From the IMG/VR virus record IMGVR_UViG_2925929528_000002, positions 1 through 47,716 of that record: a DNA stretch of 47,716 nucleotides. One strand, given 5' to 3'. Of this stretch, positions 36,001 through 39,000 are shown piece by piece. Position 1 is the first letter of the stretch; the number at the start of each line of letters is the position of its first letter. This DNA comes from a virus (taxonomy: Duplodnaviria; Heunggongvirae; Uroviricota; Caudoviricetes). Position numbers: made by a program.

Positions 36001-39000
36001 CTGTGCGTTGAACTCGGAACGGATCAGCTCATAGCCATCCGGTGACCGCATGTGCTCGAACATCCAGCGGGCCTTTAATTCCACCTCATCCGGCACGACC
36101 GCTAACATCTGATACAGATTAATCAGATCCGGGTTAACGTCCGCCAGCAGATAATCTGCGTGCTTATCGCTGTTCAGGAATACTGACCCACCACCAACGA
36201 ATGGCTCTATCAGGCGTTTCCCTGCCGGGATATGCACGAACAGGTCAGCCAGCTGGGTATACTTTCCACCAGCCCATTTCAGAAATGGCTTGCTCATGAA
36301 CGGAACCCCGCTGGCACTGAATAATCCACCTCGGAATAACTGGACTTGAACGCCGTGTCTTGTTTAACCCACTTGCCGCCAGTCCAGGCTGGGCGTCCGG
36401 CTGCGTCCCATTTTTTGGCCTTGTCGAAATACTCGACGCAGTTCTCGGGAGCAAACAGCGTTTTGGGCCGCAGGTAGTCGCTCATCTTCGGATCCTGAGC
36501 CCATTTCTCGTTCAGGTAGTCAACCACCAGCATCAGGTCTTCAGGGCTGTAATCTTCCGCCAGGCGTCCCCGGATATAACCCAGCGTCGTTTTGGTTCGT
36601 CCCCCCTTGCCATAGGTCGAGTTGGTTACCCGATTGAAATGATCCAGAACGAGATCTGCCGGATCGGTCTGGTCTGGTTGCAGCGCAACCGGACAAGAGT
36701 CTTTACCTGTAATCTCTGTAGTACTCTCTGTTGTATTCTCTGTAAGATCATCGTGCCAATTTGACCTGATGACAGCGGTTCGTTTTGACCCGGTGGAGCG
36801 TTTCACATTGACCTCTTCCATCGTGTCATTTTGACCTGATGGAACAGCGCATTTTGACTTCTTCGATTTGGTCACTTTGACCTCATCTAAAAGCGAGCTG
36901 TCGTAGTTGATCGTGTAGTAGTTCGTCATGTCGCGCTGGGACTTGTTCAGCTGCTCAACTTTAAGCACGCCCAGGCTCTTCAGCCGGGTGAAGGTGCGCT
37001 TCAGAGTGGATTCAGACCAGAACGGGAATTGCTCCAGCCATTGCTCTGTCGTGTTGTAGATCCAGCGTACGCCGTCACGCTCCAGCCCTGAGTTAGTCTC
37101 CTGCAGCCAGTAGTTAAGCTGCTGCAGCGCAATGGCTTCATTCAGGCCGATGCTATAGGCAAGGTCAGGATTGATGACTATCGGCCTTGATGGCATTAAC
37201 AGGCTCATAAGACCCCTCTATTTCCCTGAATTTTCGTCTGAACTGCTCGAGGGGGCTGAAACACTCGTGCTTATACCCTTCGCGCAGGTATATAACGCGC
37301 TGTGTTTGGGGCTCCCAGCGTATGACCCTGACCGGGACACCGTAGTGATCTCTGAACCATCGGTTAAGTTCTCGCATACTTTCTCCGCCTGGCCGTTAAA
37401 GTCCCCTACCACCCACTGAGCAAACTGGTAGCAGACAGGTTCGAACCCGCCTGGTACTCTTACCCCATACACGAACTGCACCGGTCCTGCTCCACCAGGA
37501 ACTGGCCGCGCTACAAGTTGCGACCTGCGGTACTGTGTTGATAAACTGTTCATGCGTTAGTAATCTCCACTGATAACGACACGCCACGACGCCAGGAGCT
37601 GCAACTCGCTGGCGTCACTTCTTTTTGCGTGAAAATAACGTGATAATTGCGGCAATCTCTTCTTCCCGAGCTGCCAGGTGGCGGCGGTGATGCACCATGA
37701 TTTCTTCGGCCTCGTGCCTTTCAATAACGCCATCTTCAAGTGCCTGTTCGATAATCTGATCAACCTGTCCCCTGGCGGCAGAGGTACGCATCGCCCGGCT
37801 AAACAAGTCAACGCGGTCCAGTTCTTCCAGATGCGGAACATCCACCAGCAGAGCGCCACGGCGGCGAGCGAAGTAATCAGCTAATAACGACGTATTGGAA
37901 ATGTCCTCCATCGCTTCCAGCTCGCTGACTTCGAAGAAACGACAGCCATTTTTCTCATAGAGGTTGTTGTTAAACTGCGTCACCGTCATTCCCAGTGCGC
38001 CAGCCATTGCTTCGCGCCCACCGGGATATGCTTTGCACATCGCTTTGACGGCTTCTTTGAGGTTTGGCTCTACCATATTGATTTTCCTTTTGTAGTTATC
38101 GAATAACCGCTTAAGCAGTACGATTATTTGCACTTGGTACGTCATCTGTTTGATAGCGACTTGGATACAAAATGTGTAATTCGCTTATTTCTCCTCTAAA
38201 GAACTTGGCTAATCTCTCGGCCAGTTCGACAGATGGGACTTGCTCGCATCTTTCAATGCGGCTCAACGTTGCAGGATCTACCTGTACCCCGGTTGCAACG
38301 TGCAACAAGGTCATGCCATGCGATTTTCGCAATTTTCTTAATGGTGATTGCATAATTCCTCCTATTTTTGCGTATTACGCATGTTATTCCACGCTAGCGA
38401 ATTGCGCAAGTTGCTTTGCACGAAACGCAAAAACAACATGTAATGAGTGAATGAAAATAGGATCTCGCATACGACAACTTCGCTTGGCGAAGAACATTAA
38501 AATCGCAGAGCTTGCAGAAGCTGTGGGCGTTGATGCTGCCAATATTTCCAGGCTTGAAACTGGTAAACAAAAGCAGTTTTCAGAACAGACACTTAACCGA
38601 CTTGCTCAAGCTTTAAGCGTAAGTGTACCTGACCTATTTACCTCTGACGAAAATGATACTACTGTACATATAAACAGTGAAAAATATGCATCTCCCGTAA
38701 AGGATGTGGATGTATACAGAGTCGAGGTACTTGATGTGAGCGCAAGCGCCGGGGCAGGACATATACACGGTAGCGACGTCATAGATGTCATTCATGCTAT
38801 CGAGTTCAGCAATGATCAGGCATTGGCAATGTTTGGTGGCAGGACTCCATCTGGAGTAAAGGTCATCAACGTTCGCGGTGATAGCATGGCCTCAACGATT
38901 GAGCCTGGCGACCTAATCTTTGTAGACGTAACTATCAATGAGTTCGATGGGGATGGGATTTACGTCTTTGGTTTTGATGGAAAAGTTTATGTTAAACGCC

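What the first reader, a model, noticed from the sequence alone, without database searches (positions are those of the whole stretch)
36721..36895. Iteron array inside the replication initiator gene
Six TTTGACC-core repeats at about 22-bp spacing, preceded by three CTCTGT repeats, lie within the low-complexity middle of the O-like gene. This mirrors the lambda arrangement where ori sits inside O, and supports the replication-initiator call.
Basis: partly seen in the sequence, partly recalled or inferred. Interest (0 to 1): 0.35.

Follow-up and report, generated by a model that had tools for sequence, protein, structure and literature searches.

The report
Replication origin inside phage initiator gene
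A Klebsiella prophage carries what is most likely its replication origin, six binding-site repeats followed by three short easily melted repeats, inside the gene for its own replication initiator, as phage lambda does, although the protein is from a different family.

Summary
Six TTGAC-core repeats (+ strand cores at 36761-36877, spacing 24,23,23,23,23) and three 12-bp CTCTGT repeats (36709-36744) lie inside a 304-aa replication-initiator gene (36294-37208, minus strand). They encode a predicted disordered linker between a winged-helix N-domain and a Phg_2220_C C-domain.

The repeats act at the DNA level. They fall in all three reading frames. None of 5000 synonymous shuffles reproduces the array. 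In 75 close relatives the usual excess of third-codon-position variation disappears there.

Each repeat is a dyad, GGTCA-AAA-TGACC. Distant homologues from Proteobacteria, Firmicutes and Bacteroidota carry 3-7 dyads at the same gene position and the same 22-23 bp spacing. Their arms differ and track one residue of the recognition helix.

The dyads are usually followed by 2-4 copies of a conserved CAGAGAnTAC motif, which is held at the DNA level.

The lambda-like reading is supported as an analogy. The protein is not a lambda O homologue, and the prophage encodes no helicase, loader or primase. The closest proven parallels are lambda ori/O, pSK41 Rep and 80alpha ORF20.

This is a new member of a known kind. 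Origin activity itself is untested.

The parts
36294..37208 (-). Replication initiator gene, 304 aa
   Evidence: ORF. PHROG 428 'replication initiation protein', E 1.7e-56; weaker hits to O-like and DnaD-like families. Pfam Phg_2220_C at aa 187-261, E 1.3e-17. About 98% identical in Klebsiella phages.
36873..37208 (-). Coding region of the N-terminal winged-helix DNA-binding domain (aa 1-112)
   Evidence: AF2 pLDDT 84-95 with helix/strand order typical of a winged helix. The best Foldseek PDB hits are the staphylococcal plasmid RepA N-domains 4pql, 4pt7 and 5kbj, wHTH regulators, and the DnaD N-domain 2v79. No Pfam model matches.
36870..36882 (.). Iteron 1, GGTCAAAGTGACC on the gene strand (perfect 5+3+5 dyad)
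36847..36859 (.). Iteron 2, AGTCAAAATGCGC on the gene strand
36824..36836 (.). Iteron 3, GGTCAAAATGACA on the gene strand. With its flanks it forms a 23-bp dyad, CATCAGGTCAAAATGACACGATG.
   Evidence: (D3)
36801..36813 (.). Iteron 4, GGTCAATGTGAAA on the gene strand
36778..36790 (.). Iteron 5, GGTCAAAACGAAC on the gene strand
36754..36766 (.). Iteron 6, GGTCAAATTGGCA on the gene strand. Its flanks match those of iteron 3 (23 nt, 91%).
   Evidence: (D3)
36709..36744 (-). Three 12-bp repeats on the gene strand: (TA)CAGAGAATAC, (AA)CAGAGAGTAC, (TA)CAGAGATTAC. This is the proposed DNA-unwinding element and matches the family-wide CAGAGAnTAC motif.
   Evidence: TRF period 12, 3 copies. GC 35-40%. 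Least stable 36-bp duplex in the gene: dG -42.4 against a window mean of -50.9, sd 4.6. Variability 0.020 against 0.101 for the rest of the gene in 75 relatives. Motif conserved across phyla.
36668..36698 (.). Imperfect inverted repeat just beyond the 12-mers, TCTGGTCTGGTTGC / GCAACCGGACAAGA. It may belong to the origin.
   Evidence: I4: 14-nt arms, 86% complementary, 3-nt gap. It lies within the stretch of low third-position variability that runs to codon 180. Not examined further.
36348..36662 (-). Coding region of the helical C-terminal domain (aa 183-287; Phg_2220_C). This is the presumed contact for the host helicase-loading machinery.
   Evidence: Pfam. AF2 pLDDT 74-93. No PDB fold match.

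Best explanation
The segment at about 36668-36887 is most likely the prophage's origin of replication, embedded in the linker-coding middle of its own initiator gene. Rightward-operon transcription (cro-like, cII, DUF4222, rep, all on the minus strand) makes the 304-aa initiator. Its N-terminal winged-helix domain, probably as a dimer, binds the six dyad-symmetric iterons (consensus GGTCA-AAA-TGAC) spaced 23 bp apart and assembles an 'O-some'-like nucleoprotein complex. The strain opens the adjacent low-stability, purine-rich 12-bp repeats (CAGAGAnTAC x3). The C-terminal Phg_2220_C domain then brings in the host DnaB/DnaC helicase machinery, because the phage encodes no helicase, loader or primase. 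What is shown: the anatomy of the repeats, DNA-level selection on them, conservation of the architecture across the family, and co-variation of the recognition helix with the half-sites. What is inferred: protein binding, dimerisation, wrapping, the melting site and helicase recruitment.
For: 1. The repeat is a DNA feature. The GTCAA cores fall in reading frames 0,2,1,0,2,2. None of 5000 synonymous shuffles gives six phased copies.
2. In 75 distinct close homologues, variability by codon position is 0.026/0.011/0.146 in the N-domain and 0.093/0.077/0.233 in the C-domain. Across the iterons and 12-mers it is flat, 0.041/0.042/0.045. Synonymous sites are therefore constrained.
3. The gene is a replication initiator by PHROG. 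AF2 gives a wHTH N-domain, a disordered linker at 112-177 and a helical C-domain. The N-domain's best structural matches are plasmid RepA_N initiators and DnaD.
4. In 30 of 39 clusters of distant N-domain homologues, at least 3 phased units (20-25 bp in the search; observed spacings mostly 22-24 bp) lie at gene nt 270-470, against about 8 expected from synonymous shuffles. The cores differ between clusters but are always dyads around CA-N3-TG.
5. The residue before the invariant Thr of the recognition helix tracks the outer half-site triplet: N with ACC 21/21 (four sequence contexts), D with GGG 6/6, M with GTT 3/3, S with GGT in this window.
6. The iteron-then-weak-duplex order along the gene is as in lambda (PMC7466680).
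7. There is experimental precedent for origins in the linker-coding part of an initiator gene: pSK41 Rep (PMC5703833) and 80alpha ORF20, which carries the same Phg_2220_C domain.
8. A 41.7-kb circular K. pneumoniae replicon is this phage type with the same module and no other replication gene.
Against: There is no experimental evidence for binding or origin activity in this phage or, as far as I could find, in any member of this N-domain family. The 12-mer region is only moderately unstable (35-40% GC; top 5% of 36-bp windows in the window) and is not a classical A+T-rich tract. Within the array, the 13-bp dyads are no better conserved than the spacers (0.049 against 0.051). Contact boundaries are therefore undefined, and iterons 2, 4 and 5 have poor right arms. 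No helicase-loader partner is encoded. The C-domain fold matches nothing solved, so the recruitment step is a guess. The structural match of the N-domain is weak (Foldseek E 4e-3 to 0.2). The co-variation counts are not phylogenetically independent.
Confidence: 0.8

Rival explanations
1. The repeats are initiator-binding sites whose main role is regulatory rather than being where replication starts. Candidate roles are autorepression or a transcriptional roadblock of the early operon, copy control by handcuffing, or exclusion of related phages. The true origin would lie elsewhere.
For: Iterons in plasmids serve both initiation and control (background knowledge). Cloned lambda ori fragments inhibit homo-immune phages (PMC3349717, listed). 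The DNA-level constraint and the co-variation show binding-type selection, not firing.
Against: No other iteron cluster exists in the window: a GGTCAAAWTGAC search with up to 2 mismatches finds only scattered single sites outside the gene, at chance level. The arrays are always followed by a conserved low-stability repeat, as expected of an unwinding element. The same layout is a proven origin in lambda, pSK41 and 80alpha.
Confidence: 0.08
2. The conserved sequences, especially the CAGAGAnTAC repeats, persist because they act as homologous 'linker' sequences for modular exchange between N- and C-domain modules. They would not be an origin element.
For: The homology between this gene and the E. 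coli phage mEp460 gene ends at window 36713, inside the last 12-mer, and the C-domains beyond it are unrelated. The same N-domain plus array is joined to Phg_2220_C, DnaB_2 or unassigned C-domains in different phages.
Against: This would not explain the phased dyads, their co-variation with the recognition helix, or conservation of the motif between phages of Firmicutes, Proteobacteria and Bacteroidota, which can hardly recombine with each other. It is compatible with an origin as an additional effect.
Confidence: 0.05
3. The repeats are by-products of a low-complexity or repetitive peptide linker and have no function as DNA.
For: The 12-bp repeats are in frame (TENT/TEST/TEIT). The region encodes a disordered segment. 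Some relatives show 15-aa peptide periodicity.
Against: The iteron cores occupy all three frames. Synonymous shuffles do not reproduce the array. Third-codon positions are 3-5 times less variable than in the flanking domains, and the codon-position pattern is flat. Across the family, Thr-Glu in the linker is encoded ACAGAG in 136 of 157 cases, against 3 of 76 elsewhere in the same genes.
Confidence: 0.03
4. The TTGAC cores are -35 elements of internal or antisense promoters on the + strand.
For: TTGACC and TTGACT resemble the sigma-70 -35 hexamer TTGACA.
Against: The promoter scan finds no -35/-10 pair anywhere in the array. The single hit in 36200-38500 is at 37724-37697, against 1.7 expected. 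Homologous arrays have cores unrelated to TTGACA, such as GGGCA, ACCCA and GCTCA.
Confidence: 0.02

Closest known systems
Phage lambda ori-lambda inside gene O, and the Stx-phage variants with six iterons
   Same: The origin lies in the middle of the initiator gene, in the part that encodes an interdomain linker. It has 4-6 dyad-symmetric iterons at 20-24 bp spacing (lambda 39034-39118, about codons 117-145 of O). In the direction of transcription these are followed by a weak, purine-rich duplex. The gene sits in the cro-cII-rep early operon (PMC7466680).
   Different: There is no detectable sequence relationship to lambda O: BLASTP E 0.92, no PF04492 hit, hhalign probability 0.1. The iteron sequence is unrelated. 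Three CAGAGAnTAC 12-mers at 35-40% GC stand in place of lambda's roughly 40-bp A+T-rich tract. No P-type helicase-loader gene follows; a Dam methylase gene does.
pSK41 Rep (RepA_N plasmid initiators of Gram-positive bacteria)
   Same: A three-part protein of about 300 aa. The N-terminal winged helix binds repeats located centrally within its own gene. The central segment encoded by the origin is a dispensable linker. The C-domain is helical (PMC5703833). RepA N-domains 4pql, 4pt7 and 5kbj are the top structural matches to this N-domain.
   Different: The structural match is weak (E 4e-3 to 0.2, TM about 0.5-0.57). There is no Pfam RepA_N hit. This element is a phage, not a plasmid, and its host is Gram-negative. 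The C-domain showed no similarity to the pSK41 or DnaD C-domains in the Foldseek search.
Staphylococcus phage 80alpha ORF20 and SPP1 G38P 'replisome organisers'
   Same: 80alpha ORF20 carries the same Pfam Phg_2220_C C-domain (E 1.1e-31). GenBank annotates a putative rep_origin inside the gene at nt 236-461. Deletion of ORF20 cannot be complemented in trans, and ORF20+ORF21 suffice for autonomous replication (PMC5499656).
   Different: The N-domain is different (hhalign probability 0.3). The repeats are different and are followed by a true AT-rich run. 80alpha encodes a DnaC-like loader, ORF21; this prophage does not.
Francisella phage KIRK Fhv_0043
   Same: A Phg_2220_C protein with an in-silico origin (repeats in an AT-rich region) proposed inside the gene (PMC7924643).
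   Different: That proposal is also only a prediction. Relatedness of the N-domains was not examined.

Membership tests
Origin embedded in an initiator gene (lambda-type architecture) | Array of at least 3-4 phased initiator-binding repeats with internal dyad symmetry | tested here: met
   Six units with 23-24 bp spacing and a GGTCA-N3-TGACC dyad. The array exceeds all 5000 synonymous shuffles.
Origin embedded in an initiator gene (lambda-type architecture) | Repeats lie in the part of the initiator gene that encodes a linker between a DNA-binding N-domain and a C-domain | tested here: met
   Codons about 106-168. AF2 pLDDT is below 50 for residues 112-177, flanked by confident domains.
Origin embedded in an initiator gene (lambda-type architecture) | Adjacent A+T-rich, easily melted region downstream of the iterons | tested here: inconclusive
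   The 12-mers are the least stable 36-bp stretch of the gene. They are only 35-40% GC and in the top 5% of the window, so this is not a classical AT tract.
Origin embedded in an initiator gene (lambda-type architecture) | Selection acts on the DNA sequence itself | tested here: met
   Flat codon-position variability and 3-5 times lower third-position variability than the flanking domains.
Origin embedded in an initiator gene (lambda-type architecture) | Initiator binds the repeats, and the fragment supports initiator-dependent replication | not testable with these tools
   The only indirect support is co-variation of the recognition helix with the half-sites.
Origin embedded in an initiator gene (lambda-type architecture) | Partner helicase-loader or helicase gene next to the initiator (lambda P, P22 gp12, 80alpha ORF21) | tested here: not met
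   The downstream genes are Dam, RusA, DUF968/HNH and Q. No helicase, loader or primase was found in the window or in the complete 41.7-kb relative.
Lambda O protein family (Pfam PF04492 Phage_rep_O) | Sequence match to the Phage_rep_O N-domain | tested here: not met
   No hit even at E<=10, while lambda O itself scores 5.7e-36. BLASTP and hhalign are negative. There are only PHROG-level hits to 'O-like' families (phrog_391, 2.7e-15).
Phg_2220_C-containing phage replication proteins (Pfam PF09524 / TIGR02220) | C-terminal domain scoring above the Pfam gathering threshold | tested here: met
   64 bits against a cut-off of 27, at aa 187-261. The NCBIfam score of 49.1 is below its cut-off of 66.65.
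RepA_N / DnaD-type winged-helix initiators | N-domain with the RepA_N/DnaD winged-helix fold | tested here: inconclusive
   The top Foldseek hits are 4pql, 4pt7, 5kbj and 2v79. E is 4e-3 to 0.2 and TM about 0.5-0.57, and generic wHTH regulators score similarly.
RepA_N / DnaD-type winged-helix initiators | Sequence match to Pfam RepA_N (PF06970) or DnaB_2 (PF07261) | tested here: not met
   No such hits for the window protein. A relative with the same N-domain, Staphylococcus phage 96 ORF015, does carry DnaB_2.
PHROG 428 replication initiation protein | Full-length profile match | tested here: met
   E 1.7e-56, aa 5-303.

The most novel reading that the evidence does not exclude
This window represents a large family of phage initiators with no Pfam model, found in Proteobacteria, Firmicutes and Bacteroidota. 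Its origins would have a fixed two-part grammar. The first part is variable dyad iterons, NNN-CA-N3-TG-NNN, at 22-23 bp, whose outer triplets are read by one recognition-helix residue. The second part is a conserved set of 2-4 CAGAGAnTAC repeats at 11-12 bp that stays with the N-domain whatever C-domain is attached. On this reading the conserved repeat is a sequence-specific unwinding or single-strand-binding element recognised by the invariant part of the initiator, comparable in role to the 13-mers or DnaA-trios of oriC, and not merely a weak duplex. I found no description of it.
Probability: 0.35. Interest if true: 0.6.

Novelty: new member of a known kind. Interest (0 to 1): 0.38.

Why it matters
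The result gives a testable origin and initiator call for a common family of Klebsiella, Enterobacter and E. coli prophages. NCBI currently names these proteins only 'conserved phage C-terminal domain-containing protein' or 'transcriptional regulator'. The half-site and recognition-helix correspondence could predict which phages share replication specificity, and so which might exclude or cross-activate one another. The conserved CAGAGAnTAC repeats offer a simple sequence signature for locating origins in thousands of phage genomes. The lack of any helicase-loader gene raises a concrete question: how does a lone initiator recruit the host DnaB?

Tried and rejected
- Peptide-repeat origin of the repeats: rejected on reading frames, synonymous shuffles and the codon-position pattern.
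- Internal promoters: rejected, because the array contains no -35/-10 pair.
- Homology to lambda O: BLASTP, Pfam and hhalign were all negative. The published HHpred link between the lambda O C-terminus and Phg_2220_C (PMC5509034) could not be reproduced with a single lambda O sequence.
- C-domain fold: a separate AF2 model gave no PDB match by Foldseek, best E 1.8. A DnaD or pSK41 C-domain relationship is therefore not shown.
- Sequence search of solved structures: only insignificant PadR-type and wHTH hits.
- GATC clustering at the origin, prompted by the adjacent phage Dam gene: density is no higher than at several other places in the window.
- Extra iterons elsewhere in the window, for example near the early promoter: none above chance.
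- Full-text search for the CAGAGAnTAC motif: returned only unrelated primer sequences.
- A 12.5-kb Clostridium plasmid hit: the record is fragmentary and the gene copy truncated, so it is uninformative.
- The first protein search, with the 108-aa N-domain, returned only short or truncated entries. These served for an alignment but not for full-length context.
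Full report
**Observation.** The + strand between 36749 and 36887 carries six repeats with a shared TTGAC core, starting at 36761, 36785, 36808, 36831, 36854 and 36877 (spacing 24,23,23,23,23 bp). 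Four copies are exact TTTGACC, one is ATTGACC and one is TTTGACT. To their left on the + strand lies a 12-bp tandem repeat, GTAATCTCTGTA x3, at 36709-36744. Exact TTTGACC is not over-represented in the window as a whole: 12 found against 7.2 expected. The phased cluster is what stands out. It is the longest chain of any 5-mer at 21-25 bp spacing in the 47.7-kb window, six copies against a next-best of four. None of 5000 shuffles that keep the encoded protein and codon usage reached six.

**Context.** The repeats lie in a 304-aa ORF on the minus strand (36294-37208). The minus-strand gene order is a cro-like gene (38111-38353), a CP76-type cII (37615-38145), DUF4222 (37165-37377), this gene, Dam methylase (35488-36297), RusA, DUF968/HNH and a Q-like antiterminator. 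A cI-like repressor is divergent at 38451-39146, and an integrase lies at 44455-45441. The segment is 97-98% identical to Klebsiella phages vB_VIPKPNMC05 and ST147-VIM1phi7.2. The protein matches PHROG 428 'replication initiation protein' (E 1.7e-56), with weaker matches to 'O-like' and 'DnaD-like' PHROGs. It carries Pfam Phg_2220_C at aa 187-261. NCBI names the family only 'conserved phage C-terminal domain-containing protein' or 'transcriptional regulator'. AlphaFold2 gives a confident N-domain with winged-helix topology (aa 14-112, pLDDT 84-95), a disordered segment at aa 112-177, and a helical C-domain at aa 183-287. The iterons and 12-mers (codons about 106-168) therefore encode the linker.

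**DNA-level signal.** On the gene strand the GTCAA cores sit in reading frames 0,2,1,0,2,2, so they cannot reflect a peptide repeat. I compared 75 distinct genes from IMG/VR and GenBank relatives. Variability by codon position is 0.026/0.011/0.146 in the N-domain and 0.093/0.077/0.233 in the C-domain. Across the iterons and 12-mers it is flat, 0.041/0.042/0.045. Synonymous sites there are three to five times less variable than in the flanking domains. The protein-coding signature is absent. The 12-mers are the most conserved stretch, 0.020 against 0.101 for the rest of the gene. The 13-bp dyads are not better conserved than the spacers between them (0.049 against 0.051), so essentially the whole 23-bp unit is constrained.

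**Anatomy.**
- Each unit is an imperfect dyad. On the gene strand the six read GGTCAAAGTGACC, AGTCAAAATGCGC, GGTCAAAATGACA, GGTCAATGTGAAA, GGTCAAAACGAAC and GGTCAAATTGGCA.
- Units 3 and 6 extend to a 23-bp dyad, CATC-nn-GTCA-nnn-TGAC-nn-GATG (D3).
- Downstream in the direction of transcription come CAGAGAATAC, CAGAGAGTAC and CAGAGATTAC at 12-bp spacing.
- This 36-bp stretch has the lowest GC (35-40%) in 36000-37600 and is the least stable 36-bp duplex in the gene (dG -42.4 kcal/mol against a window mean of -50.9, sd 4.6). That places it only in the top 5% window-wide. A 51-nt stretch spanning the 12-mers (36700-36750) is 67% purine on the coding strand.
- A 14-nt imperfect inverted repeat follows at 36668-36698.
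- The array contains no sigma-70-type promoter, and no further iteron cluster exists elsewhere in the window.

**Comparison across the family.** The N-domain has no Pfam model but is widespread. tblastn finds it in phages of Staphylococcus, Bacillus, Listeria, Pseudomonas, Erwinia, Klebsiella, Vibrio, Flavobacterium and Bacteroides and on phage-like plasmids. I fetched 140 loci around distant homologues.
- Of 39 sequence clusters, 30 have at least three phased units at gene nt 270-470.
- The units are again dyads around CA-N3-TG but with different arms. Examples are GGGCA..TGCCC, GCTCA..TGAGC, GGATCA..TGATCC, ACCCA..TGGGT and GTTCA..TGAAC.
- The residue just before the invariant Thr of the predicted recognition helix (Ser67 here) tracks the outer half-site triplet:

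| Residue | Outer triplet (count) |
|---|---|
| Asn | ACC 21/21, in four different sequence contexts |
| Asp | GGG 6/6 |
| Met | GTT 3/3 |
| Lys | GCC 9, GGA 2 |
| Ser | GGT 2 (this window and mEp460), TGT 1 |

They are not phylogenetically independent, but they are what direct read-out by the N-domain would produce.

**A conserved second element.**
- In 93 of 128 distinct distant genes the iterons are followed by two to four copies of CAGAGAnTAC at 11-12 bp. The background outside the gene is 0.026 matches per 260 nt.
- Over 97 copies from 38 representative genes the consensus is C(0.89)-A-G-A-G(0.89)-A-n-T(0.87)-A(0.87)-C(0.77).
- It is held at the DNA level. Thr-Glu in the linker is encoded ACAGAG in 136 of 157 cases, against 3 of 76 elsewhere in the same genes, whose GC ranges from 31 to 64%. 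In 33 genes the copies occupy more than one frame.
- It accompanies the N-domain whatever the C-domain: Phg_2220_C here, an unrelated domain that RAST calls 'Primosomal protein I' in E. coli phage mEp460, and DnaB_2 in Staphylococcus phage 96.
- It is absent from 80alpha ORF20, which has a different N-domain.
- Homology with mEp460 stops at window 36713, inside the last 12-mer. The element also marks a module junction.

**Mechanism.** The best-supported reading is a lambda-style origin. The initiator's winged-helix domain binds the phased dyads, and the complex opens the adjacent weak, purine-rich repeats. The C-domain then recruits the host helicase. No helicase, loader or primase is encoded in the window. 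None is encoded in a complete 41.7-kb circular K. pneumoniae replicon of the same phage type either. Recruitment must therefore go through host DnaB/DnaC. That step is inferred. The C-domain model matched nothing in the PDB.

**Relation to known systems.**
- In lambda the origin (four iterons at 39034-39118, then an AT-rich tract) lies in the middle of O, and Stx phages have six iterons (PMC7466680). The layout and position here are the same. The protein, however, shows no similarity to O by BLASTP, Pfam or hhalign.
- The top structural matches of the N-domain are the RepA_N initiators of staphylococcal plasmids. In these, four Rep boxes lie centrally within rep, and the segment encoded by the origin is a dispensable linker (PMC5703833). 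The scores are weak, E 4e-3 to 0.2.
- 80alpha ORF20 shares the Phg_2220_C domain and has genetic evidence for an embedded origin (PMC5499656).
- An in-silico origin inside a Phg_2220_C gene was also proposed for Francisella phage KIRK (PMC7924643).

**Verdict.** It is a new member of a well-known kind, an origin embedded in its initiator gene, so the finding as stated is of modest interest. Two family-wide points go beyond it and were not found described in the library searched. One is the apparent one-residue-to-half-site correspondence. The other is the conserved CAGAGAnTAC repeats standing where lambda has its AT-rich tract. Origin firing, protein binding and helicase recruitment all remain to be tested.

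Noticed in passing
window 36709-36744; also L102, L110, L142, L161, L184, L225-L230 (gene nt about 400-520): A CAGAGAnTAC motif repeated 2-4 times at 11-12 bp follows the variable iterons in most members of this initiator family, from Firmicutes to Proteobacteria. Bacteroides (CAGATAGTA) and Vibrio (CAGATGTAA) phages carry variants. Codon usage shows it is constrained as DNA.
   Followed up: yes
window 36713 (junction); L001 2531-3496 (E. coli phage mEp460), L003: E. coli phages mEp460, HannyBb and PhiR42_1 share the N-domain and iteron array (about 78% nt identity) but have an unrelated C-domain that RAST annotates 'Primosomal protein I'. The homology breaks inside the last 12-mer, which suggests module exchange at the origin. 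In mEp460, iterons 1 and 2 are degenerate (GGCAAATTGAGC and TTTAAAATGCGC).
   Followed up: partly
window 36668-36698: An imperfect 14-nt inverted repeat lies immediately beyond the 12-mers, inside the stretch of low synonymous variability. Lambda also has a palindrome to the right of its AT-rich tract, GTCAGAGAATTC/GAATCCTCTGAC (L084 about 863-890). Its arms contain CAGAGAAT, which resembles the family motif.
   Followed up: no
L232 (NZ_CP095244.1, K. pneumoniae p21080237_4, 41,710 bp, circular): A record deposited as a plasmid is a complete lambda-like temperate phage genome with integrase and excisionase. It has the same DUF4222-rep-Dam-RusA-DUF968 module (N-domain 95% identical) and no other replication gene. 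It is probably an excised or replicating phage circle.
   Followed up: partly
window 37165-37208: The upstream DUF4222 gene (37165-37377) overlaps the start of the initiator gene by 44 nt. The Dam gene start overlaps the initiator stop (ATGA at 36294-36297). This points to tight translational coupling through the module.
   Followed up: no
proteins P0001-P0097: Public databases hold many truncated versions of this protein, 130-190 aa long. Whether they are truncated within the repeat-encoded linker was not checked; frameshifts or assembly breaks at the iterons would be one possible cause.
   Followed up: no
window 22520-22690 (minus strand): A periodic TCGTC/ATCGTC pattern encodes an acidic Asp/Glu-rich low-complexity stretch in a head-morphogenesis-region gene. 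This looks like a peptide-level repeat, unlike the iterons.
   Followed up: no
window 36294-37208 and homologues: NCBI annotation names this initiator family 'transcriptional regulator' or 'conserved phage C-terminal domain-containing protein'. The N-domain has no Pfam model despite being present in phages of at least three bacterial phyla.
   Followed up: partly
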